DNA of 56,034 nucleotides, filler included, from Sphacelaria rigidula (lineage: Eukaryota), in assembly GCA_964200075.2 (NCBI GenBank). It is 4 parts of 4 records of this genome, joined end to end, with 100 filler letters (N's around TTAATTAATTAA, not from the genome) between each part and the next. Parts side by side here need not be neighbours in the genome. Positions count along the whole stretch, not along the records: positions 14,036 to 27,968 come from CAXNAA020002573.1; 3 more parts are not named here. One strand, 5' to 3'. Below, in pieces: positions 2,893 to 49,400 of this stretch. A program made the translations under genes and the position numbers. Below the pieces are notes generated by a model, which saw only the letters and a list, made by a program, of their open reading frames with translations, was not told where the DNA came from and searched no databases. The number at the start of each line of letters is the position of its first letter. Within the stretch, counting starts at the first letter, position 1.

Positions 2893-3364
2893 GTGTGGTG
2901 TACCCCGAGTATGTTGTGTGAGCTGAACAGGTATGTTGTGTGAAGTTCAAGTGTGCTGTAGCGGCGAATTGGATAGAAATGTGTTGTGTGTGGTTTGAGA
3001 TGACTCGTCCAGAGACGCTGCATATACAGCGCACGGTCTTGCAAGGTGATCGTTGTTGTATGAATCTACGCACCTGTGACACATCCAGCAAGTGGTCAGA
3101 TCCGTTGCGCTCGAGTCGTGTCAGAGTTGGAGCTCTTTTGGGGGGTAACGCATCATACAGCTGTACTGCAGAAGATAACCAACCGTACAAACGTTTCGGC
3201 GTCAACATGTGACTGCTTGCTTCGGTACTTGACTTTTTTCTAGCAAGGATTGTCCAGTATTTTGTCCAGGCCAACCAACCGAATGCGCATAATGTGTTTT
3301 ATCGGGTTTACCGGCGATGATGTTCATCGACGGGGTTGGTATCTCGTGCGTGGATTGTGCGCAG

Positions 3365-6300
3365 ATCCTGACAGGAGGGGACGGGGCGCCTTCCCCGCGG
3401 CGATCGATGCAAGCGTCATCCCTCATGGCCGACTTCGATGACGAGGACTCAGATGAGACGGAAGGCAGCGGCGAGAGTAGCTCGGTGACAGCCCCGGGCG
3501 CGACGCGAGCATCAGGAGTACGTAGCGTGGCGTCGGCCGTCGCCACTGTCGTATCTACGGCCATGCGGCCGCGCCAGTCATTGGCGTCTCGTAACTTGAT
3601 GGGAGGAAACGGAGATAGCAACGGTGGCGGAGGCGGGCCGTATTCTACCGAATCTCGCGGCCGTGGCGGCCGCAGTCTTGCGGACCCTGCAGTGTTGGAA
3701 GATGCGTATCTCCAGCTAACGCACTCGCTCGCGCAGCACAATCAGCGGGCCGGGAGGGTGCGTGCGGCAGCGAGGTGCTGGGGAAAGCGCGCGGAGTTGT
3801 TGTTGGAGAGGGGGGAGGTGGGGATTGCGCAAGCGAGGCTTGTGAGGTTGGCTGATCTGTACCAGGTGCGCGTTGTTTGTCGTATGCTTCCCGTTTGGGT
3901 AGCTGGGTGGGTTGTGGCATTCCCAGGCTATGGGCGTGACGCATCGCGAAACGCGGTGAGAAAACAGCACATGTGCGATCATCGTACCGCAGTCTGTTAC
4001 GGTCGACAGTCGTCGTGCTTTTTGAGTCGCTCACAGGACACCATCTCTGTGTCATCTGCAGCTTACTGGCAGAACGCTGACTTCTTCATCGCGCTCTTCG
4101 TTTGCTTGACAGCGTATGTGATGCTGCCTTTCAACATAACTCTTGCGGGTTCGCGTGCCATTGCGCAGTTTTGCTGTATCTCCTGCATTCGATGCCTGAA
4201 CGTAGGGTGCATTACGTGCGCGGAATCCCCCCCACTCGTCATTTTCTTCCGTCTTTGCACCGGTATATTTTCTGGTATTGTATCTCAACAGTCTGAAGGC
4301 TGGCTCCCGCAGGCGTTCTGGACACTGCACAGACTGGCACGGTGCCGCCGCACCATCGCTTCATCGTCGACGACAAACAGCGGTGGATGCGGCGGCGATG
4401 GAAACGCCAGCGGAAGCTATGTGTCCACGGTTATGCGGCTGGTGGCACTACTGAGGGACCCGCGGGTGCGGTCCGAAGGCGGATCAGCGGCGGTGAACCG
4501 AGCGGCAGCGGGGCTACTGCGTGATGCGCACGCGCTGACTTTGACGACCTCTCCTTCGCGAGCTGCCGAAGACGATTCGCCCTACCGTCCAGACACCCAA
4601 TCTGCCGAGGGCGGCGGCGCCGAGCCCGCGTACAAGTTGCAGTGCTTCGCTGATGTGAAGGCTTCGGTGTTGGTGGGTTGCAGTGGTGAAGGCGACGAAA
4701 AAGACCGATCTTGGTTGTGGAGCCCAGGTGAGCTGCCGACGGTTCACGTGGGCGATACGCTCCGAGTCTCGTGCATACTGACGAGCCACTTGCCCCAGGC
4801 GGTAACTCTAGATAGCCTGGCGCTTGAGATGACATACGAAGGGAGGTACGTCGGCGGCCGAGAGACTGATAACGGGGCTCACCGACGGGGGGGCAGGACG
4901 TCCATGCTGCCAGGCGGGCGGAGGAACCTACAGCGACTGGAGAGCGTGAAGAATATGTCAGGCGTTGATGACTCCCCTATCCCTCCTTCCCCTGCTAGCC
5001 GGGCTCCGGCTGCAAAGTTCCGTCCCCCGCCGCCGGTGGTCACTGCTACGAGCGCGCTGACGGAGTCATTGACTGATATGGACGCAAGTTTTGGACCCGC
5101 GGCGGCAGCCGCGGCGGCGACCGCCGACCGGGAGCTGATGGCGGGACAAAATTTTTCGAAGGCACGGAGTCAGAGCTTGAGCCCAAGATCTAAAAATCCT
5201 GCTGCGGGAAATAATTTCGCCAGTGTGGGAGGCATTGGTGGCGGCGCGGTTGACGCCCGCTCGGTGTTGGCTCTCCCCGACCGCAGCAAGAGCACCACCC
5301 GGTATTCGATTGGGGACTCGCCTGAATCCTCTCCCCGTCTGGCGGCGGATGGGCCGACAGTAATAGCCCCCTTGTCCCGTGCTCCGCGGCATCAACAACG
5401 GTCACCTGCTGTCTGCGGGGCAACGATAGATGGCCCGACACAGCTTGAGCCAGGCGAGAATATTGTTATATTCTCGCTGCGGCCAGCGATGCCGGGAATC
5501 GTGACTGCCACGAGAATTTCGATCTCCTGGGGGGGCGTGCATCTCGTAGGCGTGCTGCCGCAGGGTGGTCGAGGGGCGGCAGTAGGGGCTACGAACCCCG
5601 CCGCTCAGTTGACTGTGCCAGTCGGAGCGCCGCGCCCGCGCCCGGCACCGTCCGCAGTTGTACGTCCGTTCCGCCCGCAAGCTACTCTCGAGATACTACC
5701 GCCAGCGTTTCTCCCAGCCGGCTGTGGTGGATGGATGCGCGTTGTAGTCACCACAGGACCAGATACGATGCGTGGCACTCGGTTGAGGGTGGGCGTGGGT
5801 CACGGCCTTGCGTGGGGCTCGGTTGCGCTTGCTAGGATACGCCTGCGTCCGGTGGGCAGTGATGTAGGCGGTGGTGATGATGGGGAAGAAAGACAGGCGC
5901 TAGCGACGGCGAGGGAGGATCTTGCTGAGGTTGCAGTCGAGCTTCCCGACAGGATGCGCGCCGGGTGGCGGGCGGACGTATTCCTCCGCGTGCTGTCGAC
6001 CGCCCCGGCGGCGCCGCGCCTAGAAGATTTGTTCGTTTCCAGCACGTTTCGAAGCCCGACTCCGAAGGCGTGCACTGTCAAAGCGGAAATGCAGGCCGGG
6101 CACTCGCGAGATGCTGAGGATGCAGCAGCCAAGACGCCCCTGTCTCCTCCCGGGAACGACAGCCAGGCGGGGGTGGAGTGCCGTATTCGAGCACGGGGGA
6201 TTGTTCAGGCAAGACTGCCGTTCGAGACCCGAACGACCGTAATGCCGCGGCCTGGCGGGGTGGTGCTAGCTGAGGCGTCTCTGGTTTGTCGGGCTCCCGT

Positions 6301-7495
6301 CGCGCTCGTTCTGCGCTCGTGCGAGATCGACGAGCTGGAAACAGGCGCCACGGTCATGGCGAACCCGAACGCTCACCTGGACGGGGAGTTGTTGCCGCCA
6401 GGGCAACCTCTGCGTTTGGCAGTATGCCTGCGCCGCGACTGGCGGGCAAGGGTGTTGGCGACAGCCACCGAGGGGTTTGACGGCAGCAAAAGAACTAGCA
6501 TTGACAGTGACTTTTCTTCGTCCGGCTTGCCGCCGCCGCTTGCGGTGCTGAGGCTTCATTACGAGATTCACCACGACGGCACGGAGGACGACGGCACACC
6601 GAAAACCGCGGCGAATGAAGACGTTTCTCGGGAAAACGAGAAATTTATCTTTGACGTGACCATTCCTGCACCACCAGAACGCAGTGAAAGCACCGTCCGG
6701 TCGCTGCCGGCTTCCATCACCTCTGTTGGGACCGGTTCGATCCCGCGACCCCGTGTCACCCTCACTGCGTTCGTTGAGCCCAGCGATGGCGGGGGTAGTG
6801 CGAAAAACGTGGCCACGGGTGATGGGTCCATGCTTGAGCTGAAGCTCGCCGAGCCTCGGGCTTTCGAATTCGGTGTAGATGTTGGTTCAGAGGCGCCAGA
6901 TGGCGCGAAGGCGGGCGCGGAGCAACTAGCGACGTTTCAGGTGGCGGCTTGCCCGCTGGACTGGATGATCAGCGGGCTTGTGAAGGGGTCGGCAAAGCTG
7001 GGGACCGAGGTGAGGTCTCTGTTGAGAGTGGTCGTGTGAAGGGTGTTTTACACTACTCGGTGAAGGACCGGGGACCCTGGTTCGCGAAGTGACGTGCGTT
7101 CGGCATGTGTAAAGCCATCACCTCACGGTTCATTTGTGCACTGTGTCTTGGGCACCAGTGAACTGATGGTGGTTTTCAGCGGCTAGGATGTGCATTCGAG
7201 GCGTTGTGGTCGGGTAACGAGTGTACTCCCTGGTGAGATATTTCAAGTACTCGAAAGCGTCTTTCATTGTCACACAGCCGGTTTTCGCCATCCCAATACC
7301 GTTTCACGTGGGTCTGTGCGGTTGTATCAGATCGGCAAGCGCGTGCTGTGCAAGGTGCATCTCGTGCCCATCCGATGCGGGCTGCTACCCCTGCCCCACA
7401 TCGACGTCGTGGCAGATGCGAGCGTTGGCGAGGACAATGTGAGCCACAGCACCACCGTAGCCTGCCGCTACTATTCCGTGCACACTTGGCAATGA
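3365..7495 (+). CDS. TRAPPC10: Trafficking protein particle complex II subunit TRAPPC10/Trs130-like, last exons: 3365-3865, 4292-7009, 7331-7495 (stop); 5' part off-contig
   Basis: Spliced peptide LEDAYLQLTHSLAQHNQRAGRVRAAARCWGKRAELLLERGE...LADLYQ|SEGWLPQAFWTLHRLARC matches the TRAPPC10 helical segment (Y..L.......Y...GR.R.A......A......EGW). The C-terminal DWMISG and LVPIRCGLLPLPHI match the TRAPPC10 C-terminal beta domain. All junctions are GT-AG, phase 0. Confidence 0.8.
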
Positions 7496-14800: not shown

Positions 14801-16022
14801 CATAATTGAAATTGGACACGATGAAAATGAGTCTGACACAGCAGATTTGCTCGAATCTCTACATCAGCCACTAGATTTCACGTCTGCGAACGCCGTGGAC
14901 ATGCTCAACCATGGCAACATAAAACCAACATATCAGATAACAGCACGTCAGTGACGTTCATTGGTACCGCAATACAGTGGATCCAATCGATGTCTTCACG
15001 ATCAAACTGATAAGCGCGCACGATTACCTCCCTTCGACTCGAGGGTGTTGCAAGTACTCATCCAGTTCTCAGATTTACAGGATGAAGCTCGAACTTTGCT
15101 TCTCGATTCAGGGGTTCGCAGGTCTAACTCGACTTTTCTCCGCATTGGTGCAGGCTTTTACAGGCTGGTCCCACCAGAGGCAAACAAAGTGGGACTCTGT
15201 CCAGGTCCTACTCACGGACTGTAGCGCCGATACAAATATAGCCCGAACGTCGAAATCAATGAAGATCGATTAACTATAATACTGTTGTTCCCCCAACAAG
15301 GACCATAAACAGCGAGAGGAAAATGGGGTGGTGGCAACGACGGATGTTGAACGGATGACATACCTCGTTCCGAGCGCGGAAGCACTGTCCAAGCTGCGAT
15401 CGACCTGGTGACGGATCATATCAAGTTATTCCTGTATTTACATGCCACTCACACTGAAAGTCTGCTGTAAATGCCTGTCCCTCTGACCCACGATACCACG
15501 ACTACACCCTTCGCTCAGCCGTCTGACACCTGCGACTCACATGTCCACTCTGCCAAGTGTTGGGAGCTGGAAAGTTCACAAGCCATACGTTTTCTTACGA
15601 ACATGTGACATCCTCGACAAGCCGCTTGTTCCATTGGCAATACAGGGTTTGTTCCCAGCGAACATAAAAGCCAGGGAGCTGCTACGGTACTCACAGCAAA
15701 GCAGCACCTGGCGCATGAATGTATTGCAGTACACTGTACGTGTGCCAATCAACAGAACAGGCATTACGGCCATCATACCCGCTACAAGAACAAAAGCACA
15801 AACTTGCCCGAACTGCTTTTGTCACCGAGAACTCAACTGTTGCAACAGAACTCTGGCGCAGGCATCACCATGGTCACACAAGAATAGCTCCACCCTGCCG
15901 CAAAGATACGTACGAAAACAGGGGCTGCGGCGGCGAGTGCAAACATACCACCGAACTCTTCCAAGGTCGGCGTGAAGCAAGCATGTCAGAATAACGCAAA
16001 CTCTCGTTCGTCTTGAAAACAC

Positions 16023-18656
16023 TTACACAAGGTCGGGCAACGTAGCCGAAACTGCCAGCTCCATCTTCAAGCCTTCCTCTTCCCCTTGGAACACCACTGA
16101 TGAAGAATCCACAGGAGCATCTTCTGGCCGGAAGTGTTCACGAACGATCGATGGCGTCTTGCGAATCCGCTTCTTCATTCTTGCATCACAACCATCGCTG
16201 GAGTTACTGCCAATTCTGCTGCCCCCACCTTCATCAGAGTAAGTGACCGCGCCAACCCTCCTCCCCAGGCTCTGCTTGAGACACTGAAGGGAAGCAAATT
16301 CTTCCGATTTCACCCTCGCGTGTGGCCTAGTCCCCAGAGGTCCTCCTTCGGCGCCCTCGGTAGGCTGCGAACCAATGAGCTCGGGACTTACGGGCACAAC
16401 AGAGCCGAAGCCGACATCACACGCACCACCCTTGTGACCAGCGGAATGATTGGGTCGTCCGTCCTGCGCGAAATATTCATCGTACATGTCTCCATGTTGC
16501 TCTCTCTTGGTTGGTCGAGATATGACATGTTGGCATACGTTACCCAGTTCGAGATTCGAGCAACCCTTGTTGCCATACTTTTGACTCACGATCTTCGCCA
16601 TCCCCGCCATGGCGTAATCGGCACACAACTCCGCCTTCCGACTTCCCGCTACACCAGACGATGGTTGTTTGGAGCAGCGCTCGTTGCCGCACTTATTGCT
16701 CCTCACATCGACCATCCCGAACCTGGCGTGGCCGGCACAGAACTCCGCCTTTCGACTCCCTGCCACACCGTACGATGGTTGTTTGAAGCAGCTCTCGCTG
16801 CCGCACTTATTGTTCCTCACATTAACCATCTCGGGCCTGGCGTGGTCGGCACAGAACTCCGCTTTCCGACTACCCGCTACGCCGTACGATGGGAGGGGGA
16901 AGCAGCCCTCGTTGTCGCACTCTTTGCTCTTTACTTCGACCATCCCCACCCTCGCGTGGCAGGCACAAAACTCTGACTTCCGACTACCCGCTACACCATA
17001 TGATCGTCGTTCGGAGCAGCCCTCGTTGTCGCACTTTTTGCTCGTTACTTCGACCATTCCCACCCTCGGGTGGCCGGCACAGAACTCTGACTTCCGACTA
17101 CCCGATACACCGTACGATGGGAGTTTGGTGCAGCCCTCGTTGCCGCACTTCTTGTTCACTACATTCACCATTCCCATCCTCGCGTGCTCGGCACAGAACT
17201 CCGCCTTCCGACCTCCCGCTACGCCGTACGATGGTCGTATGGAGCAGCCCTCGTATCCGCACTTCTTGTTCACTACATCGATCATCCCGGACCTGGCGTG
17301 CTCGGCACAGAACTCCGCCTTCCGACTATCCGCTACACCGTACGATGGGAGTTTGGTGCAGCCCTCGTATCCGCACTTCTTGTTCACTACATTCACCATT
17401 CCCATCCTCGCGTGCTCGGCACAGAACTCCGCCTTCCGACTTCCCGCTAAACCGTACGATGGTCGTATGGAGCAGCCCTCGTATCCGCACTTCTTGTTCA
17501 CTACATCGATCATTCCGAACCTGGCGTGCTCGGCACAGAACTCCGCCTTCCGACGTCCTGCTACACCATACGATGGTCGTTTGCAGCAGCCCTCGTTGCG
17601 GCACTTCTTGCTCCTTACATCGACCATCCCCACCCCCGCGTGATCGGCACAGAACTGCGTCTTCCCACCTCCCGGTACACCGTACGATGGTCGTTTGCAG
17701 CAGCCCTCGTTGCGGCACTTCTTGCTCCTTACATCGACCATCCCCACCCCCGCGTGATCGGCACAGAACTGCGTCTTCCCACTTCCCGGTACACCGTACA
17801 ACGGAATTTTGGAGCAGTCCTCGTTGCCGCACTTTTTGCTCACTACATTTACCATTCCCAGGCTGGCGTGCTCGGCACAGAACTCCGCCTTCCGACCTCC
17901 CGCTACACCATACGATGGTCGTTTGGTGCAGCCCTCGTTGCCGCACTTTTTGCTCCTCACATCGATCATTCCGGACCTGGCGTGGTCGGCGCAAAACTCC
18001 CTCTTTCGATTCCCTGCTACACCGTACGATGGTTGTGTGAAGCAGCCCTCGCTGCCGCACTTCTCGTCCCTCACATTGATCATCCCGGGCCTAGCGTGGT
18101 CGGCACAGAACTCCGCTTTCCGACTACCCGCTACACCGTGCGATGGTTTTTTGGAGCAGCCCTCGTTGCCGCACGTTTTTCTCGTTACTACGTTGACCAT
18201 CCCCACCCTCGCGTGTCCGGCACAGAACTCTGACTTCCGACTACCCGCTACACCGTACGATGGGAGTTTGGTGCAGCCCTTGCTACCGCACTTCTTGCTC
18301 CTCACATCGACCATCCCCATCCTCGCGTGCTCGGCACAGAACTCCGCCTCCCGACTTCCCGCTAAACCATGCGATGAGACTTTGGTGCAGCCCTTGTTGC
18401 CGCACCTTTTGCTCGTTACATTGACCATCCCCACCCTCGCGTGCTCGGCACAGAACTCCTTTTCCCGACTTGCTGCTACACCGTACGATGGTTTTTTGGA
18501 GCAGCCTTCGTTGCCGCACTTCTTGCTCTGCACATCGACCATCCCGGACCTGGCGTGGTCGGCACAAAACTCCCTTTTCCAGCTTCCCGCTACACCGTAC
18601 GACGCTTGTTTGAGGCAGCCCTTGTGGCCGCACTCGTTGCTCCTTACATCGACCAT
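16023..18656 (-). CDS. Intronless EsV-1-7 repeat (Cys/His-rich, zinc-finger-like) array protein: 17 intact plus degenerate 38-aa units and a C-terminal tail of about 180 aa; possibly 5'-decayed
   Basis: Tandem 114-bp units encode GMV(D/N)VxxKKCxxEGCxxxPSYGVAGSRKAEFCAxH (C-x4-C-x16-C-x2-H). This is the EsV-1-7 motif known from Ectocarpus siliculosus virus-1 and the Ectocarpus IMMEDIATE UPRIGHT family. The first in-frame ATG is at 18656; the ORF track starts at GTG 18689. Confidence 0.88.
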   Translation of the reverse strand: MVDVRSNECGHKGCLKQASYGVAGSWKREFCADHARSGMVDVQSKKCGNEGCSKKPSYGVAASREKEFCAEHARVGMVNVTSKRCGNKGCTKVSSHGLAGSREAEFCAEHARMGMVDVRSKKCGSKGCTKLPSYGVAGSRKSEFCAGHARVGMVNVVTRKTCGNEGCSKKPSHGVAGSRKAEFCADHARPGMINVRDEKCGSEGCFTQPSYGVAGNRKREFCADHARSGMIDVRSKKCGNEGCTKRPSYGVAGGRKAEFCAEHASLGMVNVVSKKCGNEDCSKIPLYGVPGSGKTQFCADHAGVGMVDVRSKKCRNEGCCKRPSYGVPGGGKTQFCADHAGVGMVDVRSKKCRNEGCCKRPSYGVAGRRKAEFCAEHARFGMIDVVNKKCGYEGCSIRPSYGLAGSRKAEFCAEHARMGMVNVVNKKCGYEGCTKLPSYGVADSRKAEFCAEHARSGMIDVVNKKCGYEGCSIRPSYGVAGGRKAEFCAEHARMGMVNVVNKKCGNEGCTKLPSYGVSGSRKSEFCAGHPRVGMVEVTSKKCDNEGCSERRSYGVAGSRKSEFCACHARVGMVEVKSKECDNEGCFPLPSYGVAGSRKAEFCADHARPEMVNVRNNKCGSESCFKQPSYGVAGSRKAEFCAGHARFGMVDVRSNKCGNERCSKQPSSGVAGSRKAELCADYAMAGMAKIVSQKYGNKGCSNLELGNVCQHVISRPTKREQHGDMYDEYFAQDGRPNHSAGHKGGACDVGFGSVVPVSPELIGSQPTEGAEGGPLGTRPHARVKSEEFASLQCLKQSLGRRVGAVTYSDEGGGSRIGSNSSDGCDARMKKRIRKTPSIVREHFRPEDAPVDSSSVVFQGEEEGLKMELAVSATLPDLV

Positions 18657-18689
18657 CCCGGACCTGGCGTGGTCGGCACAGAACTGCAC

Positions 18690-19096
18690 CTTCCGACTTC
18701 ACGCTACACCGTAAATGGGTGTTTGAAGCAGCCCTCGTTGCCGCATTTCTTGCTCGTCAAATTGGTCATCCCCGACCTGGCGTAGGCAGCGCCGAACTCC
18801 GCCTTCCGGCTTCCCGCTACACCATACGATGGATTCTTGGAAAAGCTGTTGTGGCCGCAATCCTTGCTTACTTCATCGGCCACCCCAACCCTGTTCGCCG
18901 ACACCTCCACGACGTTGACGCCCGTCATGCCATCTGATGGTCATTCCAAGCAGCCCTCCCGAGGGCACTGCCAAGCTCGTGTCACCCCTACGCTGGTGAA
19001 GCCAGAGGCTATAGCTCACACAATTTCGGCTACTCCTAGCAGTCCCACTGCCAACATGACCGGACAAGAGGAGCACGCAGTTCCTCCTGATGCTGC
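18690..19096 (-). pseudogene. Decayed upstream EsV-1-7 units (frameshift and stops)
   Basis: The repeat consensus continues upstream but is broken: GGA>TGA at about 18699-18701, a 1-nt deletion at about 18714 (cca tt tac ggt versus cca tcg tac ggt), and further in-frame TGAs in CPREGCLE*PSDG (about 18941-18943) and near 19017. Confidence 0.75.
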
Positions 19097-20862
19097 CTGA
19101 GAATATTCAACGGTTCATAAGCCGACAAGATTGTCAAGTGATCGTCAACCGCGACATAGAGTGCTTCGAGGGAAAATGGTAAACACAGGCTGTTGATATT
19201 TCGCATGGGCATTCACTACGTGATAATATCAGTGAGGCGTTTGCTCTGTCAAACGTTCCATTCCCAAAACAAAACGTGGTGCTGCCGATTCTTCGGTGAA
19301 GAACTTGGCCAAACCCTGCATATTTCCTCCACTGGATTCTCCACTGGATTTTGCAGCTCATGTAAAACGTAACACCAACACATGTCACACACTCCGGCCG
19401 AAAACAGCAGTACGGGTAAATGGTATCAACCGAAATACAAACTACAGGATGTTTTTTTTCCATCATTGAGAGTTAGATCTCGAGCCTCTACAAGGAATCT
19501 ATAGTCCACCTTTCGATGTCGTGAGTTGCGTCATGCAGAAAGCTTAACAAACTCCGAGTGTGTGTATATCACAGGTGTCTGTATAAATACCTTCACTTGA
19601 CTTCAGCCATCTGATCGTATGAACTGGTACGCTTGAGAGGGCTTGAGAGTCATCGTCATAAGTACCATACTGAACATTTCTGCACTATTACGTGCTGCCG
19701 ATGTAGAGGTGCGTATTGACACAACCAGCCCAGGACTCCGGGCCTCAAAAGGCAGGTGGGATCCTCGACAACGGATGGCTACAGGCCTTCAGTCTCGGCA
19801 CGATCCGTTGACATGCGTGCAACACACGGGTACGGAAACTGATCGAACAAGCACGTGAAACTACACTACTAAAAACGGGGTGAACAACCGAAGGTGATAT
19901 TTCAATGAACGAGTCGGCAATCCTACCGAAAATGTACGTAATCCTTCTTTATTCTCGGTAAGTATCGACCCATCGACCAAGCGATAGCTCAGAAAGACGA
20001 CGTACTGAGGAGGAGGCACCTGAAGAAAACCGGTTATGAGAACAAGAGTAACACACACTGGAATTCCTGCCTATTCATGCGAGAAGCTGGAGTCAGTGCC
20101 TTGCTGCATACTGGACCTACTCAGCACACATGGACTCAACGCAACCAGGAGACAAGAGATCAATTGGTGAATGATACACTTCGAAATGTAGGGTAATGGA
20201 ATCACTCAAGTCGACTCGTTGAAAGAGTAGGACGTATCAGTGTCTACCGGCTACGGACTGTCCATTCCGTAGGGAAGTCGTCAAGTCACGGTATCGCTTG
20301 AGCGGGGAAGCCCACGCTTGAAGAAGGTAATTTTGCATTGGGTGGAGTTTATCAGAAGCTCAACTCCCGCCTCAACGCCGGCACAGGACAACCCCGATGA
20401 TTTCCGGTAGACAGCTCATAACGAATGCACGGCCACATCATGTATCCTCAACAAATACCCGATCCTCCAGGAAGCCATGATGAACCGCCACATTTACTCG
20501 GTGTTTCTCCATAGTATGCCTCGAGAGTTGATGCCGAGTTTGCGAATGAATATGGCTTCACATGTGCAGGGACATACACTACATGCACCGCCCCCCGTGT
20601 GTGTCACAATAAATCACACAACCACGCGATTGAGACACGCCACTGTGCATGGTCGTGGTGAAGTTGGATCGTTTGGTATGGACTGGAACCGAGGTGTTGG
20701 AGCAAAAAAGCACAGGTCCAGAGCACACTAAAAGAGGTAATTTTCCCACCAACACATTGGACACATTAGCCCTCGGAAAATGGCGCTTTCGGCAAACGAG
20801 AAGATCAACACATGATGGGGCCTTCACATTATGCCATCTCAGCCCACAGGACGTGTGAACAT

Positions 20863-28128: not shown

Positions 28129-28246
28129 AATGTCGCTGGACATACTCATCAAATATGCAAAGTAGGGTCCTTGCGCGGGGAGAAGGTGAGCACGTGAGAC
28201 GGTGCCGCTATAAGGCCACCCGCATATCCAAAACGTAAAAAGTCAC

Positions 28247-31200
28247 CTGTGAGATCTCGAACACCACCATCAATCAGCACTCCTTGCGGATGCCACACGG
28301 GAGTGAACAGGCCGGGAAAGGTACACGAGGCTCTCAACGCAGGAGCGATGTTACCCTTCGTGATGCTTCGTTCTGCGAGACGCGAGATGTCGAACGCAGA
28401 GACCGCGAGAGGCACCTTGCAGTGGTCGAAGGTTGTCACCCCTTCAGGTAAATTTTCGCTGATTATCTCCTGTTCGGACACAACGGCAGACGACAAGAAC
28501 CTCGAAATAACTGACTTGTAAGAACGTCATTGTCTCGACACATGGCACCGATATGTATGTGCGGCTACATTCAGGGCTTGTCGCGAGAAAAAAGGCTGGC
28601 GGGAAATCGCGCAGGACTGAACGGGACATGAGTTGTCGTCCTGCCTCGTCGTGGGTTTGGCGACGGGCACGCGTTCCCGTCCCGTCCCGTCGTGTTTTGG
28701 TACCGGACAACATTCTCATCCCGTCCTGCTTTTTCCATGGCGACGGAAACATGTTCCTGCTCCGTCCTGGTGACGGGTGAACGTTCCCGTTCCGCCCCAT
28801 CCTCAAGGGAAAATTCTCCATACTTCGGCGAGAATTCCCGTCAATGGAAACGGAATTCCCATCCAATTTGAGGGAAGCTGAGGATATCTTCACAGGAGGT
28901 GGGATTTTCTCGATTTCCGCGCTTTAGTTTTTCCCACAATCCATTCGTGAATTTTGCATTAACGGACGAACGGTCAAAAATATCGAAACCGGGGCTTGTC
29001 ATAAACTTCGGGACGGGGAATCTTGGCCCCCTGAAGGTCACGGGACGTGGCGGGAACATTTCTCACCTATTCAACATCTGTTAGATTTTGCACCTCGAAA
29101 CCGGCGATTTATTTTCCGTGAACACGCCTGAGCGTCGATGCAATCAATTATCGCCTCATCGCGCTTGTTTCAGGGGGAGGGGTGAGGGGACGGGGCGTTT
29201 AATCCTCGCACCTACTGCCTCCCGTTCTATTCGGTATTAGTTGTACATACGCTCTACAAAAACTCGGAAAAATCCACTGCATTTGTGGTCACCTCTTCTT
29301 GAAACTCTTGCTGCTCTTCGTCTTCTCCTACTGAATCCATTTTCCTTTTTTGCAGTTTCCTACGTCGCCCATTTTTTTAATTTTTCATGTTGGCTGTTTC
29401 TGCACAGAAGGCAGTGATCCCTAGTTCCTACCTCCGGTACGTATACACGTACTTCCGTTTTCCCAATGCTTCCATATTCCACCGCTATTTGTCAAGAATG
29501 GAGCTTTTTCCCTATTGAATGCATTGCCCAGGCCGCCGCGTCCCGGTGAAATGGTCCGACTGTCGCCATTAGGGTGGAGAAAACGAGGGTTCGATCCCCG
29601 ATGTGTTGCGCTTTTTCTTCATAGTATCTGATTTCCACCGTGGGAAGCGTGAGTATGTGAGTAAACAAAGTAGTGGACTGAGTTTGTTGGACGTGAACTG
29701 ACGCGGTGCGGGAGTGGTGACCCAATCCGCGAGACCAAAATGCAAAGCGTGTACCGGGCAGAAATGCGTTGATCCCTTGAGACCACGGACTCGTCCCGAG
29801 GAAGGGGAGGGGTTCAAGGTGCGAAAAATAAAAAAAGAACAGTCCATTGTGGATATGGCTGCTGTACTTTATCGTATCACGCCATGTCGTTATTCTCCAG
29901 GAACTTAACATCTCTACCCCCTTCCTATTCCACTTCGCTTCCCCATGAGGAGGGGACGGGTCGGAAACATCTCAAGGGAATCGTTTTCATGAGGACGGGA
30001 CGGGACGGTAATTCCTGTCCTACTTGTCAACGAAAATTCCCGCTGTGTCACTCCATAAATCATTTCGCCCTGTTCGTCAAGTCTTTGGCGACAAAAAATC
30101 GTTCGTCCCGTCTCGCCGCAATTTTGGCTAGGGAAACACTGTCACATATCTTCCCGTGACCTTCGGAGGGGGCAAGGATACCTGTCCCGTCCCGAAGTCC
30201 CGTGACAAACCCTGGGTATTTTCCCTGTCATAATGTGGGTGGTTCGACTTCGGACAAGGCAGATGCACGGGAGCACGTCGACACAAAAATTTCATTTTTC
30301 TTTGCAGTATATGAAGTCCAACGGCACCAAGTACACAAAACTCACCTCGAACTTCACACCCCGGAGGACACCTCCAAATCCAAGAGGATCCCAAAAGTCC
30401 GACCGCTTGAACTTCACCACTATTTCTCCCATAACATTAGGGGAAAGTCCGGAGGCAAACAGTCCAGCTACTAACGCGCCCGCGCTAGCTCCCGTAGCGT
30501 AGCTCACCTACATTTGTTGTCGGGGGTGGGTGCCGAGTTCGGTAGATGTGCAGAGAGAACAACATTCATATGGCAGAAATATTGAGTGCACCAGCTGAGG
30601 TGTGACCCCGAGCCGCTAGCAGGACACGAGCCCGGCACATGCACATTTTCCATTCACCCTTTACCGTTTGCTAACTGCACGGAAAGGAAAACTCCTCGAA
30701 TAACGCCAATAGCTCGAGCTTTGCATTGCGATAATCGAGCACCACTGAGGACGCTCGGCATCATTTTTGTACTACCTTGTCGCGACAAGAGTACTATCTA
30801 CCGCTTGACGCCTCGACATGAAGAAAGACGAAGAGAAGTGAGAGCACAGGCAAGCAAATGAAAACTACTATGTTCACCATGCTGAACTAAGAACCTGTTT
30901 TACACCCGCTACACCGAAACCTGGGCACACGTACCCCTCCAAGAAGCTCCTCGTTTTCCAGGGCCATCAAGGCGCCGGTGTGAGCGTAAAACCCGAAGAA
31001 TCCAGGCGCCATGGACAATACATACGGGCCCTGAACAGGAACACGGGCGGGAGGTCCGGCGGGCGCAAGTCGAAGGCGGAATATCAGGTCGGGGACCCCG
31101 GAGGGGTGCAAAATATCTTGGATTCAGTATGACCTAAGAAAGAGAGGCAAATCGATGGCACAATACATTTGGAGGTCTCCATAAATGTACATAGGTCAGG

Positions 31201-43465: not shown

Positions 43466-46400
43466 GGATGGAGATCGCGGATGTAATGATGATCGAGGAG
43501 CGAGAAGTGATATTCGTCACTCAAGGTGATGACTACGTTGATGCCCCCCTCGCTGACGGGGTCGGGGGCGACGCCTCCTCGTCGGGTATCCCCGCAGTCG
43601 TCGGAGCCTACAAGGTATTCTTAGACACTTTGTGTTAAAGCACATCAAAACGGTTGGTTCAACATCTATCGCTAGAAACATAAAAAAAGTCATAAATGTA
43701 CATAGTGTTGATTTGGTCAGTCATGTGAATCTACAACACGTCGCGAATAGCGGAATGTCTTGGCAGGTATATCTTTCATACGCACACGTCATGACCTGTG
43801 GGCTGAGTTATCATCCCATCCATTTGTGAGGTTGAGGGCTTGATTCATGAACTCGTACATCAACTTCTCAACCTTCTGCGGAAAATAGTGGGCGGTGAAG
43901 GTAATTGCCCGCGTAAGCGAAAAGTGCGCTGAAGAAACCATATCGCCCCCTCTTAGAGCTCTGAATTATCGTGCTTTTATAGTGCCATCTGGGATACGTT
44001 ATGGAATCCATCTGGGATGTTTTTCTCTTGTCTCATGTCCATATCTGATGTTGGTATACTCATCTCAGACAACTACCAAGGATTCGAGGTCCGTCTGGGA
44101 GGTCAAATTCTACCTGATGTGTGGATACTCACCTAGGGTATCCCTTTGGGACATGCCTGTTCATCTGGGATGCCCATCTGGGATGTCCCTGTGGGATAGG
44201 GATAGGAGTGCCTATCCGCGAACTCCATCTGAGACGTCCATCTGGGACGTGGATTCCATTTGGGATGTTCATCTGGGTCTAGGGTGGGTGTTCAGGATAG
44301 ACGTCTGCCTGGGTTCCTTATGTGCACCTTGAACGTCTCATCTGCTGAGATCAGTTCGCCATGTCGACGTTGATTGTTCGGATGCATGTTCTTGGTTATA
44401 GCTAAATACAGCCTGAAACACCACTCGTAATACTATTAACCCTAACCCGCTTCCGTGAGCAGCTTGTGCGCAGGCGACCTACATCAGGGATAGCTTGCTC
44501 TTGTAGACCATAGTGCAATGTGCACTCGTGCCGCATACATCGAGGTTAGCGAACGCTGGTAGAACGCCGTGCAGCGTACTCTTGTAGGGTAAGACTCTTG
44601 GTTAGCGCCCGCTGATAGGACAGTGTGGAATGTGCAGAGATGGATGCCCCAGATTGACATCCCAGATAGATTCGAGGTCCCAACCGTATGTTTCAGATAC
44701 GTGTAAAGTCCCACCTTTGTATCCTGGTAGATGCCGTATTTCCATATGACAGAAGGATACTCCCCATGGATCTGAGATCCTAGATGAGTGTCCCAGATGG
44801 GTATGTATCTACCTCTCAGGTGGATATCCCAGATGAACGTTCGTATCTCAGATAGGTGTTCTAGATATATGAGCATATACCAGTCTGCCATTTCTTTCTG
44901 TGCTATGCTTGTGTTGAATTTTTCATTACTTTTTTTTGTCACGGCTTAGTCTGCTATGTCGTCCTGTTCGACCCCTCATTTTTTTTTTTTCTCAGAGCGT
45001 GTTTCAGTTTCGTTTTTTTGGGTACGTCTATCATAAGACCACGGCTGGACCCCTGGCGGGTCAGTTAAAGTGCGACAATCGACCAATCAATCAAAATCAA
45101 TCACCAGATGGAGCTTTCGGGAGAATGCCAGACCTAGCGTCGCTCTCAAGGCTGACTAGCCGGTAGAAGTGCTGCCCACCACGTCATAATGCAAGGCGGA
45201 CACTAAGGCGGCGCATGTCCAGCCCTCGATACTTCAGGTTACCAGTTGTGAAACTAACGGAGGGATACGAGGCCATCGTATTTGCGTTCGCACGTTTGCC
45301 AAATGTGAGGCTCCAATATGGTTTGTCAGCCCGACGAATGCATATCGTGAAGCTTGCTTCTGATCTTACCGTTGGGCTATTCCATCGCCCCGTGTTGCCA
45401 GACCCGCACACCGAAACGCTGAGTGAAATAGCTGCGATGAAGGAGACGTCTAGTGCTCTTCATGTCAATTGCACTGCTGCTTGGTTTTGAGCAAAAATAT
45501 GAGGGTTGAAGTTCTGTATGGTCATCGATATGCAACATGCGTTCGAGAAGATATAAGCGCTACACGCGGGTATCAACATACTCGAGTTGCGCCAAAAACA
45601 TGCGACCGGGCGGATCAGAAAGGCGGCAAAACAACAGCTCTGTTCTTTAATACGCATGACTCCATCCTGAAGCAACCAACGCTTGGCCACGAATTCTCTG
45701 GTTTTCCCCGACAGGTATGCGAATTTCTTGGAAAGGGTGGTTTCGGAGAGGTTAGGGTCGGGGAGCATCAGCTGACGACGGAACGCGTCGCCCTCAAGTT
45801 TCTGAGGAAGAGTGCAATAGCCGACATGGGCGCAGCGGAACGAACGACTACCGAGATACAGTGTAAGCTTCGACCCGGGCAGCAGGTGCTTCGAAGAAGA
45901 AGGAAAACGTTGCTTTCACGGCTTAGCAAATAAAACGGCGCACCACTTAGCCACAACGCTTTCTCACGAAGCTGAGTTCGAGGACACTATCGTAGGCTAC
46001 ACGCTTTACCCATCGTCGACGTTAATCGTCTGCCTACCAAATGATACCGTTCAGATATTTTCCCGCCACCCAAGTTAACCCCTCTGCTCTACTTTATTCA
46101 GTATGCGTCAAAATCGCCGGTCATCGTGCACTTGCGATCCATATCTACAGCTTTTGCCTTGATGGGACTACATGCCTACTTTCGCAAAGGAAACACGACC
46201 ATGATCGGGTCAGTGTTGGTGATACTGCATACTGCACCCTAGCAAGCCGACACTACTATCGGTTGTCCATTCTCTTTTGTCCTATTGCAGGTCTAACCGC
46301 ATTGAAGCACCCCAATATAATTCGGCTAGTGCAGCACATCAACACTCCCCAAAACGTGGTCATGGTTTTCGAGCTAGCAGAAGGAGGCGACCTGTTCCAG

Positions 46401-49400
46401 TTTCTTTGTACGGCGCCCGGGCAGCGCGTAGAGGAGGATGAAGGACGAGCGCTATTTCGGCAGGTACAGAAAGGTCTCACCGCTGAAGGAAGACGCTTTT
46501 TCTTGGCTGATTCTCGAGACAAGTATGATGGACTTCGGGCATTCAATACATGGGAATAATGATCGAGCAAAAGGGTACGAAACACAGTCGGCGGACAAAG
46601 ACAATAGAGCACGCACGTTCCTTTCCTTCGACTGAATATCTTACGATTATGCAAGCGTTAATCATCGATTCTGTTAGTCAGAAGAGCTGACGCGTCTCGG
46701 TGTGGCTTGGAAGGGTTTCTCGATGACCCTGGGCAGTATTTGATCTTACTTCATGCAGCAAACCGATGGCGACCCTTCTGCACATTTCTGCTTGCTGGCC
46801 GTTGCGTTTTTTTTTTTTTTTTCAGTACCGCGGCAGGTACCGGTGTCGTGGTTGTTAAAATGCATACCTTCATTGCTTCTACGTGCACGGTTACAAGCGT
46901 TTACCAGGCCGGTGTTCTTTTCTGGATAAAGGTCCACGAAAGTAAACAAACACAACTCAAAGCTCCAACCGTGACCCTCACTGCGACTCAAACCGATGGA
47001 CAACGTGTGTGCTGGCGACCATTAACGTGGGCTAGGTGCCCCAGTAGGGCACATCGCAGTGTGCGCTGGTGAAGCATCAATCTGTACTAGAGTGGAGGGC
47101 GGGGGGGGGGGGACGCTGTGCATTATGCGCTGGTAAAGCATACATCCAGGTCAGCGTACACTGGTACAGCACCGTGCAGGGTACCCTAGTAGGATACACA
47201 TCTATGTTCGCGTCCAATGGTGTATCGTCGTACGGTGTACGCAGAGATGGGCGTCCTAAACTGACATTCCAGATGAATGTGACGTCTCAGTTGGATGTTC
47301 CAGATTGACGTGAAATCCCGGGTAAATATCCCTGATGGATATCCTAGATGGACCTTCATATTCCAGATTGACATCACAGATGGGTATCCTAGATGAATGT
47401 CTTCTTCCTGGGTGAAAATCGCAAATGATGATTTATGTTCCGAATGGACGCCCCAGATGGACGCCCAGATAGGTATACTATACGTATCCCGGATTGAAGC
47501 TGCATACTGGTGCAGAACCGAGCTGCGGTTGACTTTTCCTCCGACACCTACTCGTATTGTTTCATCAGATTGTGAGTGGAGTGGGCTACGCACACAACCA
47601 GCACATTTGCCACCGCGATATGAAGCTGGACAACGTGCTCCTGTCTCGGACGGGGTGTTTGCGGGGGGTCAAACTGGCCGACTTTGGTCTCAGCGACTTC
47701 TACCGGCCAGGTGCTACCATGCGCACCAACTGTGGGTCGATATCCTACCTCGCACCTGAGGTAGGTACATACGCGCTTCGCTGCGTCGGGGACGGCGGGG
47801 AAGGAAAGCGTACGACTGAAGCCCACTAGTTCCTGAAATTTTGACATTGTAGCCGAGTGAAGCTTTTCGATCAATCTATGGCCAAGTCATTGACGAAGAT
47901 AGTAGTCACCCATGAGTAACATATATATTGCCACCAAACCTGAAACGCGATGGTCACGGTAGGGCAGGGTGGGGAGGGGAGGAGCGGCAACGAACACGGA
48001 AAAAAAGGATGATTGTCGGCTACGGCCCTAGTACTTGCTGACAAATGCCTTTTTCGCAAGTAAATACATTTTACGTTGCCTCTCTACATGGTCTATGATG
48101 CATGTCCGCATGCATGATCAGGTCTTTCGTGGGACGTCAAACGCGGGGCCGCCCCTCGACGTGTGGTCACTAGGGGTGATTATGTTCGCGCTGTTGTGCG
48201 GTCGGCTTCCATTCGAGGGCACCGATCTGCAGGTGAATAAACAGAAAGTACATTCTTTTGCTAGCGTACGCCGGTACGGTGTATAACGCAGATCAACGGA
48301 CTTCTGTTTTGCTACAGAACGCGTGAAGTAGAACTCTTGCCCCGTGTTTGACAGAACGATGTTGGCTGAATGATGCTACCAGCATTTTGAGACAATAGAA
48401 TGACTGAGCTGCGTCAAGCAGTATACGCAAGGTGATACTGCGATCGATGTCTTATGAGCCGACTTTTTTTTCTATCACTCTCTGTATCCCAACGGTCGCC
48501 AGGGAACAAATCGCCCGCGGGAGGCCACCATTCGACGTCGGATTATGGAGTGTCGCTACAAGCCTGCGGAGTCATTGTCTCCAGAAGCGAAGGTAAGGGA
48601 GAAATAACGTGGAGGCAGCATTGAATTGTTTTTTGCACGTATGACCTTTTGTGTGTGTTGTCATCTCATCCCTATCCTGGATGCCAGTCTACACCTTTCG
48701 GTATATGTGGGTGCCGAACACAGGAGGAAGGCCAACACAGAATTTTTGTACTTTGTTTTCTTCATACAACATCTTCCTTCTGCAGTGCTTGCCTTATGTT
48801 TTATCGCGAGAGGGGTTCAACGGTCCCTTTCCCTCGTCGACCGTGAAGTTGAATTTTGTGTACCCGTGTGACATAGTCGCTCTCTACTATCGGGCATGTA
48901 GTGAGAAAAATGCCAGATCGTGTGACTGCACCGAAACTCGAACCCATGGCCCAAACCGTCACAAGGATTCAAGCTTACCAACTCAGCTACCGGGGCAACC
49001 GACTCTGTTTTGCGCTCGGAAAATCCTTGGATCATCGGTTGTCCATTGTGGGCAAAGCGTGATGAGCTGCTTTTTTGCTGGACATGGTCCCCTGATAGAG
49101 ACAGATTGTCTTTTTTTGTGTTCCGCGTACTGGCGCGTGTGCACTGCCATCTCGAGTGTTCTCAGAATGACGGCTAGGATGTTCTCGCGACTGACCAGGT
49201 GATATCCGCTGTGGACCCTTCGTCGGGAATACCCGTTGTCGCCCGCACAACACTATTTTGAGAAAAAGTGGACTGAAACCATCGCACGACTTTACTCCGG
49301 TAGATTCAGGATTGCCAGTCAAACCCGCAAGTAGTGTTGATTGATACGTCCGGATCACACGGTTATGTACAGGGTGTTTACCTATAAATGTTGTTCATTT

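What the first reader, a model, noticed from the sequence alone, without database searches (positions are those of the whole stretch)
16600..18690. EsV-1-7 array has a conserved scaffold with a hypervariable triplet per unit: a candidate modular recognition code (TALE/PRDM9-like logic)
Seen: 38-aa units keep C-x4-C-x16-C-x2-H, GM, YG, G and FCA almost invariant. The three residues after the second Cys change from unit to unit: LKQ, SKK, TKV, TKL, SKK, FTQ, TKR, SKI, CKR, CKR, SIR, TKL, SIR, TKL, SER, FPL, FKQ, SKQ. Secondary variable sites are HAR-x (S/V/M/P/L/F) and V(D/N/E)V-xx. The units are strongly basic and encoded in one uninterrupted exon. Known: EsV-1-7 repeats form an expanded, virus-shared family in brown algae that includes the developmental regulator IMMEDIATE UPRIGHT; to my knowledge their ligand is not established. 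Inference: a fixed metal-binding scaffold with a few surface positions varying per unit is how TALE, PPR and C2H2 arrays encode specificity. This could be a reprogrammable nucleic-acid (or protein) reader used in virus or transposon conflict.
Basis: partly seen in the sequence, partly recalled or inferred. Interest (0 to 1): 0.8.

Follow-up and report, generated by a model that had tools for sequence, protein, structure and literature searches.

The report
Brown-alga-type EsV-1-7 zinc-repeat array
This is a long tandem array of a known, functionally uncharacterised zinc-binding repeat (EsV-1-7) whose units differ most at a few fixed loop positions, a pattern shared by the whole family that fits, but does not show, a modular DNA-reading role.

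Summary
The array is real. It lies on the minus strand: 18 intact 38-aa EsV-1-7 units (18632-16578; Pfam PF19114, E 3.9e-258) plus two decayed 5' units, in an 891-codon open frame with a conserved non-repeat tail.

- The middle residue is K in 13 of 18 units.
- The most variable position is 29, then 9, 7 and 35.
- The triplet holds only 16% of all unit-to-unit differences; mean unit identity is 67%.

The same positions (9, 36, 11, 29, 35, 7) vary most within 17 other homogeneous EsV-1-7 arrays, so the pattern belongs to the family.

Codon models on a tree give omega above 1 at positions 7 and 9. The units recombine (PHI test), and tree-free independent pairs give only 1.3-1.9 (p 0.009-0.26). 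Constraint is clearly uneven; positive selection is not shown.

Indirect support for a DNA ligand:
- 78 of 120 homologues, some on giant-virus contigs, fuse the array to a PD-(D/E)xK-like nuclease domain. This scan noted that architecture before on other DNA.
- A published Ectocarpus mariner transposase carries the domain.

This copy lacks a nuclease and has a stop and a frameshift at its 5' edge. It is a new member of a known family; a recognition code remains a hypothesis.

The parts
16023..18698 (-). Stop-to-stop open frame of 891 codons holding the intact array and the tail. The stop codon is at 16023-16025.
16578..18632 (-). 18 canonical EsV-1-7 units. Seventeen are 38 aa; unit 4 is 39 aa. 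Unit 1 starts at 18632 and unit 18 ends at 16578.
   Evidence: PF19114, 19 stretches, E 3.9e-258
18654..18656 (-). First in-frame ATG, the conserved Met of the G-M motif of the broken unit. It is a candidate start giving an 877-aa protein with 18 units.
   Evidence: inference
18633..18745 (-). Broken unit 0: one base lost in the codon for position 11 (about 18715) and TGA in place of Gly16 (18701-18699).
18746..18859 (-). Degenerate unit -1, with the second and third Cys and the His replaced. It is read in another frame.
18704..18928 (-). Upstream 74-residue frame, ATG at 18928 to TAG at 18706-18704, covering unit -1 and the start of unit 0. It is probably the former N-terminus, now cut off by the frameshift.
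   Evidence: inference
16026..16577 (-). Non-repeat C-terminal tail of 184 aa (pI 6.1). It starts with a half-decayed unit and is conserved, with the same C-terminus, in 5 other records (42-66% identity).
16158..16175 (-). KKRIRK, a basic cluster of the kind found in nuclear localisation signals. The K-K-R core is conserved in 5 of 6 aligned tails.
   Evidence: reading it as an NLS is an inference from the pattern

Best explanation

Architecture. The protein has 18 tandem C2CH zinc-binding modules of 38 residues, joined by fixed-length basic linkers. A conserved tail follows, carrying an NLS-like basic cluster.

Origin. The array grew by duplication of single units and multi-unit blocks. Gene conversion or recombination between units has kept reshuffling it. 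Its 5' edge has decayed, while the 18 units and the tail have stayed open.

Fold. Each unit folds on its own: a zinc knuckle (C1, C6), a beta-hairpin (12-14, 20-22), a one-turn helix carrying C23 and H26, and a third short strand (31-33). Neighbouring units are not predicted to pack firmly. The array therefore resembles beads on a string, like classical zinc-finger arrays, rather than a solenoid like TALE or PPR proteins.

Variable positions. Positions 7, 9, 29 and 35/36 lie in loops next to the zinc ligands. They are the least constrained sites across the whole family and evolve here at about the neutral rate or slightly above.

Proposed function (inferred, not shown). The array binds DNA in the nucleus. 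The conserved K8 and the K/R linker would give general affinity, and the variable zinc-flanking positions would contribute sequence preference.
For: Shown:
- Family membership and unit anatomy.
- Block duplications: units 11/13 are 97% identical, 8/9 92%, 6/17 89%, 4/14 88% and 5/16 85%.
- Recombination among units: PHI 0.49 against 0.58, with 0 of 2000 permutations as low, and 49% of informative site pairs incompatible.
- At positions 7-9 each recurring residue always uses one codon, for example S7 = TCC in 7 of 7, K8 = AAA in 13 of 13 and R9 = CGA in 6 of 6. This points to identity by descent or conversion.
- Purifying selection on the positions other than 7-9, 29, 33, 35 and 36: pN/pS 0.37; overall omega 0.65.
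- The 3-unit AlphaFold2 model has mean pLDDT 87.7 and the secondary structure given above. The 6-unit model has pLDDT 66.4 and pTM 0.29, so there is no confident inter-unit packing.
- The same positions vary within 17 other arrays: position 9 in 16 of 17, 36 in 16 of 17, and 7, 11 and 35 in 12 of 17 each. Spearman rho with this array is 0.49, p 0.003.
- Unit period: spacing between adjacent units is 37-39 residues in 690 of the 775 neighbours that lie 45 residues or less apart.
- Host type: G13/A27 as in the 42 nuclease-less homologues, among them named brown-algal proteins. The 72 nuclease-bearing homologues have N13/K27.
- The tail is conserved.

For a DNA ligand (indirect):
- 78 of 120 homologues carry a C-terminal RPD...E-x-D-E-x-Q-H...NPD domain.
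- 3 of 4 giant-virus loci do so too.
- That domain aligns in register with the D...E-x-K motif of the Hjc resolvase, but only at E 1.9.
- A PHROG 'homing endonuclease' family matches P0010 residues 521-582, which end at the E-x-D-E-x-Q-H motif (residue 575), at E 8e-4. The ESM Atlas gives PvuRts1I-like (0.88) and DUF559 (0.85) as leads only.
- The array is basic, pI 9.3.
- An N-terminal EsV-1-7 domain sits on the TcMar-2_Ec32 transposase (PMC12477816, passage read).
Against: - No DNA binding has been shown for any EsV-1-7 protein in the papers I could read (passages of 5 papers).
- This copy has no nuclease or other enzyme domain.
- Its former N-terminus is cut off by a frameshift and a stop, and translation from the internal ATG is assumed.
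- No run on record as RNA was available to test expression.
- Omega above 1 at the variable sites is not robust. They may simply be unconstrained.
Confidence: 0.5

Rival explanations
1. Modular recognition code under diversifying selection. Each unit reads one element of a nucleic-acid target through positions 7-9, with 29 and 35/36. The array is one of many fast-evolving readers used against viruses or transposons, as KRAB zinc fingers or PRDM9 are.
For: - Tree-based codon tests: M2a against M1a gives LRT 21.5 (p 2e-5), with site 9 in a class of omega 9.5.
- Omega is 3.4 for positions 7-9 and 2.0 for the site set chosen from other arrays (LRT against 1 is 9.9, p 0.002).
- Tree-free point estimates are all above 1, from 1.34 to 1.91.
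- The same positions vary in independent arrays.
- The unit period is fixed.
- Relatives carry nuclease and transposase fusions.
- Very many contigs at 90-95% likeness lie on the array in all 4 runs laid, for example 925 of 1462 in X1. This fits a large, young paralogous family, but it is not a copy number.
Against: - Recombination among units is a known cause of false positives in such codon tests.
- With 9 independent unit pairs the triplet gives 1.49 (p 0.086). With the 5 closest pairs no site set is significant (p 0.11-0.26).
- The triplet holds only 16% of the differences, and variability across positions is graded rather than bimodal.
- Closely related unit pairs mostly keep the same triplet: 11/13, 8/9 and 4/14.
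- No viral or transposon genes lie nearby.
- An earlier scan note on a viral array reported no fixed-position code (not checked by me).
Confidence: 0.17
2. Decaying relic. The locus is a pseudogene left by family turnover. The pattern of variation reflects constraint that acted before inactivation, plus conversion from functional paralogues.
For: - A frameshift and a TGA lie within one unit at the 5' edge, and a further unit has lost its ligands.
- No protein above 54% identity was found among 5.8 billion clusters, so the locus is not represented as a gene model there.
- All three minus-strand frames and some plus-strand frames stay open for 250-400 codons across the repeat, so openness within the repeat is weak evidence of coding.
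Against: - Both lesions lie in the 5'-most 230 bases. The following 2676 bases have none, including the 555-base non-repeat tail, which ends at the same C-terminus as 5 homologues.
- The positions other than 7-9, 29, 33, 35 and 36 show pN/pS 0.37.
- Every unit offers an in-frame ATG with G at -3 and at +4, so a 5'-truncated array can still be translated.
Confidence: 0.2
3. Protein-binding scaffold. The zinc modules serve as protein-protein interaction units, as in LIM or RING-type treble-clef domains (a recalled comparison). The variable loops are then partner-contact or merely exposed sites.
For: - The fold is a small zinc module without a long recognition helix.
- The family's one genetically studied member, IMM, is described only as a developmental regulator of unknown biochemical function (passages).
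- Several variable positions hold hydrophobic residues: position 29 is V/M/L/F/P and position 7 is F/L/C.
Against: - The recurrent fusions in relatives are to enzymes that act on DNA: a nuclease-like domain, a transposase, and a helicase-associated HA domain in P0027 and P0092.
- The array has a strong net positive charge.
- The inter-unit period is strict.
Confidence: 0.13

Closest known systems
EsV-1-7 cysteine-rich repeat family (Pfam PF19114; Ectocarpus virus EsV-1 gene 7; the Ectocarpus IMMEDIATE UPRIGHT protein; large families in brown algae)
   Same: - The Pfam model matches 19 times.
- Ligand spacing, the roughly 38-aa period and tandem arrangement agree.
- The closest named homologues are brown-algal proteins from Ectocarpus, Sphacelaria, Ascophyllum and Scytosiphon, at 39-54% identity.
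- The literature calls it a possible novel zinc finger of unknown function, expanded in brown algae and often in tandem gene clusters (10.1101/2024.02.19.579948, passages).
   Different: - It has many more units (18 intact) than any of the 120 homologues under my strict motif count (at most 11). P0002 has 15 Pfam stretches.
- It lacks the IMM-specific N-terminal domain, and the N-terminus here is decayed.
- It is the only EsV-1-7 motif-bearing stretch in this 56-kb window.
- It has its own conserved tail, shared with only 5 records.
Giant-virus EsV-1-7 array fused to a Vsr/PD-(D/E)xK-like nuclease
   Same: It has the same repeat with the same most-variable positions (9, 11, 36, 29, 7, 35 in 14 nuclease-bearing arrays) and the same period.
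   Different: - This protein has no nuclease motif.
- Its units are of the G13/A27 type, not N13/K27.
- The nuclease assignment is itself weak here. Pfam and NCBIfam are silent. A PDB profile search of the domain finds nothing. The only in-register alignment is to Hjc at E 1.9.
C2H2 zinc-finger arrays (KRAB-ZNF, PRDM9) and TALE repeats (compared from general knowledge, recalled)
   Same: - It is a tandem array of small modules with conserved fixed-length linkers.
- Constraint is uneven, with a few fast positions per unit.
- Growth is by unit duplication and conversion.
- The charge is basic.
   Different: - The ligand pattern is C-x4-C-x16-C-x2-H, not C2H2, and no zf-C2H2 hit appeared.
- There is no long recognition helix in the model.
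- Units are only 67% identical and the 'specificity' triplet holds 16% of the differences. In TALE and PRDM9 arrays nearly all differences sit at the specificity residues (recalled).
- No code and no ligand are known.

Membership tests
EsV-1-7 cysteine-rich repeat family (PF19114) | Match to the Pfam model above its gathering score (25 bits) | tested here: met
   833.3 bits, E 3.9e-258, 19 stretches
EsV-1-7 cysteine-rich repeat family (PF19114) | Ligand pattern C-x4-C-x(15-16)-C-x2-H, repeated in tandem with a period of about 38 residues | tested here: met
   18 of 18 units, with unit 18 having Y for H; 16 of 17 intervals are 38 residues and one is 39. In the family the spacing is 37-39 in 690 of 775 adjacent pairs.
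EsV-1-7 cysteine-rich repeat family (PF19114) | Zinc binding by the Cys3His ligands | not testable with these tools
   Inferred from invariant ligands and the confident AF2 unit fold. No metal was modelled.
IMMEDIATE UPRIGHT (IMM) orthologues | IMM-specific N-terminal domain ahead of five repeats (the criterion used in 10.1101/2024.02.19.579948, methods passage) | not tested
   No IMM sequence was available from a tool. This locus has 18 repeats and a decayed N-terminus of 74 residues made of repeat remnants, so orthology is unlikely.
Giant-virus EsV-1-7 array-nuclease proteins | C-terminal domain with RPD ... E-x-D-E-x-Q-H ... NPD motifs | tested here: not met
   The motif is absent from the ORF and from all six frames of the window. 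It is present in 78 of 120 homologues.
TALE / PRDM9-type 'coded' repeat arrays (works-like comparison) | Near-identical repeats whose differences are confined to a few specificity residues | tested here: not met
   Mean unit identity is 67%. Positions 7-9 hold 16% of the differences and the top 8 positions hold 46%.
TALE / PRDM9-type 'coded' repeat arrays (works-like comparison) | dN/dS above 1 at the specificity residues | tested here: inconclusive
   Tree-based omega is 3.4, p 1e-5, but the units recombine. The tree-free estimate is 1.49, p 0.086.
TALE / PRDM9-type 'coded' repeat arrays (works-like comparison) | Specificity residues line one ligand-facing surface; one unit reads a fixed number of bases | not testable with these tools
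   The model's coordinates are not returned and no protein-DNA modelling is on offer. Only secondary structure is known.
C2H2 zinc finger (PF00096) | C-x2-4-C-x12-H-x3-5-H pattern and a Pfam match | tested here: not met
   The pattern differs. Pfam reported only PF19114 and a biased DUF1490 score with no stretch.

The most novel reading that the evidence does not exclude
EsV-1-7 repeats are a third natural class of modular, array-forming DNA readers, beside C2H2 fingers and TALEs. On this reading:
- Each 38-residue zinc module contacts a short step of DNA through the zinc-flanking positions 7, 9, (11), 29 and 35/36.
- Giant viruses use such arrays to aim homing-type nucleases.
- Brown algae have taken the array without the nuclease and expanded it into hundreds of fast-evolving genes. 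These would act as regulators or as blockers of viral and transposon target sites.
- This 18-unit protein would then read a long site of some tens of base pairs.
Probability: 0.17. Interest if true: 0.85.

Novelty: new member of a known kind. Interest (0 to 1): 0.4.

Why it matters
The EsV-1-7 family is one of the largest gene-family expansions in brown algae. It includes a developmental regulator, yet its biochemical function is unknown.

This work adds three testable points:
- The same few zinc-flanking positions vary within arrays across both host and viral members.
- The unit period is fixed at 37-39 residues.
- Most long relatives carry a nuclease-like domain.

Together these give a concrete proposal: DNA binding, with named candidate specificity positions. 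If confirmed, the family would explain how giant-virus homing-type nucleases are aimed. It would also offer a new programmable DNA-binding scaffold. As it stands, this particular locus is an ordinary, possibly 5'-truncated, family member.

Tried and rejected
- Whole genome: none is held, so paralogues and alleles could not be compared directly.
- Sequencing runs: no RNA holder is listed.
- Reads laid: all four runs are contigs. Exact contigs cover parts of the array in runs of 3 studies, for example 16409-16728, 16851-17136 and 17928-18122. Paralogous contigs swamp the tables, so the listed 'other letters' could not be read as alleles.
- Two runs guessed to be RNA (X5 and X7, one study) have almost no cover at 19188-19400, and their contigs stop fitting at 19100, near a ttctcag|g site on the minus strand. 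With one study and a guessed library type I draw nothing from this.
- Fold searches all came back empty:
  - Foldseek on the 6-unit model (best E 2.5) and on the 3-unit model (best E 4.0).
- PDB sequence searches: the array, P0016, profile A2 (best E 1 and 1.9) and the nuclease-domain profile A4 (no hit). The link to I-Bth0305I (3R3P) named in earlier scan notes was therefore not reproduced by sequence.
- NCBIfam and PHROGs on 6 homologues gave only weak or spurious rows, apart from phrog_9084 'homing endonuclease' on P0010 at E 8e-4.
- Orthologue hunt through the tail:
  - No hit among proteins of 490-1560 aa.
  - 5 short records in the representative library, all from contigs of 0.5-2.8 kb without names.
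  - No locus in metagenome contigs, two scans.
  - So no orthologous array DNA was obtained.
- ESM Atlas: closed for the window's own sequence. For the stored homologue P0020 it returned only other EsV-1-7 clusters.
- Macaisne et al. 2017 (Development 144:409) is not held. What I say of it comes from citing passages and recall.
- Supplements are closed. Table S17 of 10.1101/2024.02.19.579948 lists the EsV-1-7 genes and might show whether this locus is an annotated gene.
- Rejected, a provirus or transposon setting: 112 ORFs of 100 aa or more outside the array gave only a patatin exon and a protein-kinase exon.
- Rejected, convergent reuse of a limited residue alphabet: at positions 7-9, every residue seen in more than one unit always uses the same codon, which points to shared descent or conversion.
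Full report
**What is there**

The region holds a 114-bp tandem repeat. TRF reports 16618-18832, 19.4 copies, 81% matches and score 2417. It is read on the minus strand. A stop-to-stop frame of 891 codons runs from 18698 down to 16023.

[quoted passage not shown] Eighteen units carry C-x4-C-x16-C-x2-H; unit 18 has Y for the His, and unit 4 has one extra residue in the linker.

The array is basic, with K+R 117 against D+E 66 and pI 9.3.

**The edges of the array**

Upstream of the open frame the repeat continues for two more units that have decayed.
- Unit -1 (18859-18746) has lost three of its four ligands.
- Unit 0 (18745-18633) has lost one base in the codon for position 11. It also has TGA where the other units have Gly16 (18701-18699).
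- A 74-residue frame starts at an ATG at 18928 and covers these remnants. It ends at the frameshift and looks like the former N-terminus.

The first ATG of the long frame (18656-18654) is the conserved Met of the G-M motif. It has G at -3 and at +4. A protein started there would have 877 residues and all 18 intact units.

Downstream, the array ends in a half-decayed unit and a 184-residue non-repeat tail (16577-16026, pI 6.1).
- The tail has five relatives in a library of 1.84 billion representatives (E 2.5e-50 to 3.4e-11).
- They are 42-66% identical in the alignment and share the same C-terminal end.
- The tail holds a conserved basic cluster, KKRIRK at 16175-16158. I read it as a likely nuclear localisation signal; this is inferred from the pattern.
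- One relative (P0123) also keeps the decayed last unit ahead of the tail.

Both disabling lesions sit in the 5'-most 230 bases. The next 2676 bases, non-repeat tail included, have none. That fits a gene that has lost its old start better than a dead locus, but expression was not tested.

**Surroundings**

- No other EsV-1-7 motif occurs in any frame of the 56-kb window.
- Of 112 ORFs of 100 aa or more outside the array, only a patatin-like exon (28152-28526, minus) and a protein-kinase exon (46026-46559, plus) match Pfam.
- Nothing viral or transposon-like was found.
- Named homologues are brown-algal, from Ectocarpus, Sphacelaria, Ascophyllum and Scytosiphon, at 39-54% identity.
- No genome is held for the window.

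**How the variation is distributed**

Per-position entropy among the 18 units is highest at position 29 (2.56 bits). It is followed by 9 (2.31), 7 (2.06), 35 (1.88), 20, 25, 33 and 3. Position 8 is K in 13 of 18 units. The 'triplet' is therefore two variable positions around a conserved lysine, and it is not the most variable site.

Positions 7-9 hold 16% of all amino-acid differences between units. Positions 7, 9, 29 and 35 hold 25%, and the eight most variable positions hold 46%. Mean identity between units is 67%. Variation is clearly uneven, but it is far from the near-identical repeats with a few changing residues that define TALE or PRDM9 arrays (recalled).

**Is this pattern special to this array?**

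No. I extracted 652 canonical units from 114 of 120 homologues.
- In the 17 arrays whose units are at least 60% identical to each other (out of 82 with five or more canonical units), the positions that differ most within an array are 9, 36, 11, 29, 35 and 7. Position 9 reaches a mismatch of 0.5 or more in 16 of 17 arrays, 36 in 16 of 17, 11 in 12 of 17, 29 in 9 of 17, 35 in 12 of 17 and 7 in 12 of 17.
- This array's profile correlates with theirs: Spearman 0.49, p 0.003, over 34 non-ligand positions.
- In 27 host-type arrays the order is 35, 36, 9, 7, followed by a smooth gradient.
- The alternation of variable 7/9/11 with conserved 8/10/12 suggests an extended chain with one exposed side (inference).

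**Selection**

- Over all unit pairs, Nei-Gojobori pN/pS is 1.77 for the triplet. It is 0.37 for the positions other than 7-9, 29, 33, 35 and 36, and 0.56 overall.
- In my own codon-model code, on an IQ-TREE tree of the units:
  - M0 gives omega 0.65.
  - M2a beats M1a (LRT 21.5, p 2e-5), with only site 9 in the positive class.
  - A partition gives omega 3.4 for positions 7-9 (against omega = 1: LRT 19.3).
  - The site set chosen from the other arrays (7, 9, 11, 29, 35, 36) gives omega 2.0 (LRT 9.9, p 0.002).
- The units do not share one tree.
  - 49% of informative site pairs are incompatible, and a PHI test gives 0 of 2000 permutations as low as observed.
  - At positions 7-9 each recurring residue always uses the same codon. 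For example, TKL is ACC AAA CTC in units 4, 12 and 14, although unit 12 otherwise groups with units 7, 10, 11 and 13.
  - Recombination of this kind inflates tree-based omega.
- A tree-free test on nine non-overlapping unit pairs gives the following:
  - Triplet: pN over pS of the whole unit is 1.49 (one-sided p 0.086).
  - Positions 7 and 9: 1.75 (p 0.036).
  - Positions 7, 9, 29 and 35: 1.72 (p 0.009; these sites were picked after seeing the data).
  - The family-derived set: 1.34 (p 0.11).
  - With the five closest pairs nothing is significant (p 0.11-0.26).
- Conclusion: constraint is strongly heterogeneous. The variable sites evolve at about the neutral rate or somewhat faster. Positive selection is suggested but not established.

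**Structure**

A 3-unit AlphaFold2 model built on 132 aligned sequences is confident (mean pLDDT 87.7, pTM 0.52). Each unit shows:
- a coil over residues 1-11, which holds the C1/C6 knuckle and positions 7-11;
- a strand at 12-14 and a strand at 20-22;
- a one-turn helix at 24-26 carrying C23 and H26;
- a strand at 31-33, followed by the linker.

I read this as a treble-clef-like zinc module. That is my reading, and no search supports it. No solved structure matched.

A 6-unit model is much less confident (pLDDT 66.4, pTM 0.29). The units are probably independent beads joined by conserved linkers, not a packed solenoid.

All the variable positions lie outside the strands, within one to four residues of a zinc ligand: 7 and 9 after C6, 25 and 29 around H26, 35/36 before the next C1, and 3 between C1 and C6. 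They may therefore surround the zinc site in space. Coordinates are not returned, so the 'one face' test could not be made.

Adjacent units in the family are 37-39 residues apart in 690 of 775 cases. This points to a geometric constraint between neighbours.

**What the relatives say about the ligand**

- 78 of 120 homologues carry a roughly 110-residue domain after the array, with the motifs RPD, E-x-D-E-x-Q-H and NPD.
- 3 of 4 loci fetched from giant-virus contigs of IMG/VR encode such proteins.
- Evidence that the domain is a nuclease is weak:
  - Pfam and NCBIfam do not name it.
  - A family profile aligns it in register with the D...E-x-K motif of the Hjc resolvase, but only at E 1.9.
  - One PHROG 'homing endonuclease' family matches at E 8e-4.
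  - The ESM Atlas gives Nucleocytoviricota hypothetical proteins (0.97), and PvuRts1I-like and DUF559 only as weak leads.
  - A domain-only profile finds nothing in the PDB.
- Earlier notes of this scan describe the same array-nuclease architecture in several giant-virus windows and compare it with Vsr-like homing endonucleases. I reached the architecture independently and could confirm only its presence, not that comparison.
- Nuclease-bearing arrays have N13/K27. Nuclease-less ones, this one included, have G13/A27.
- The window's protein has no such motif.
- Two homologues carry helicase-associated HA domains.
- These fusions, the positive charge and the NLS-like tail make DNA the most likely ligand. 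No paper I could read shows binding. They call the motif a possible novel zinc finger of unknown function (passages of 10.1101/2024.02.19.579948, 10.64898/2026.04.27.720984, PMC7457493 and PMC12993054).
- 'EsV-1-7' occurs in 11 held papers. With 'nuclease' it occurs in one, which does not describe the fusion.

**Verdict**

The pattern is a property of the whole family.

The locus is a new, unusually long, possibly 5'-truncated member of a known family. The modular-reader idea is reasonable and now has named candidate positions and indirect support for DNA. The TALE/PRDM9 signature is not met, selection is unproven, geometry is untested, and nothing links this copy to virus or transposon conflict.

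Noticed in passing
homologues P0004-P0120; L001:2986-5034, L002:2995-4344, L003:2995-4767: 78 of 120 long EsV-1-7 homologues, and 3 of 4 giant-virus loci, join the array to a C-terminal domain with RPD / E-x-D-E-x-Q-H / NPD motifs. It looks like a PD-(D/E)xK (Vsr/DUF559-like) nuclease, and Pfam and NCBIfam do not name it.
   Followed up: partly
window 16026-16577 (minus): The non-repeat tail defines a small subfamily. Five other records (99-615 aa, from short unnamed contigs) share it at 42-66% identity, with the same C-terminus and a conserved K-K-R basic cluster.
   Followed up: partly
window 3293-7039 (plus): A 1248-codon open frame in the most GC-rich part of the window (up to 62%), rich in A, G, S and R, with no Pfam match. 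It is probably a large exon of an uncharacterised host gene.
   Followed up: no
window 28152-28526 (minus) and 46026-46559 (plus): These are the only other Pfam matches in the window: a patatin-like phospholipase exon (E 6.5e-9) and a protein-kinase exon (E 7.1e-9). They are ordinary, intron-split host genes.
   Followed up: no
window 16023-18698 (minus): Pfam also lists DUF1490 (PF07371) at E 9e-27 but with no stretch passing on its own. This is a summed, repeat-driven score that should not be taken as a domain.
   Followed up: no
homologues P0013, P0015, P0024, P0003: The 24-residue Pfam model Zf_WRKY19 (PF24906) partly overlaps EsV-1-7 units in some homologues (whole-protein E down to 6.4e-9, matching model positions 1-13). 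This hints at a link between the knuckle half of the unit and a plant motif.
   Followed up: no
window 15800-19400 in runs X1, X4, X5, X7: Between 1462 and 2833 contigs per run lie on the array, and most of those in each run (925 to 1557) are at 90-95% likeness. The organism seems to hold many closely related arrays. This is not a copy number.
   Followed up: no
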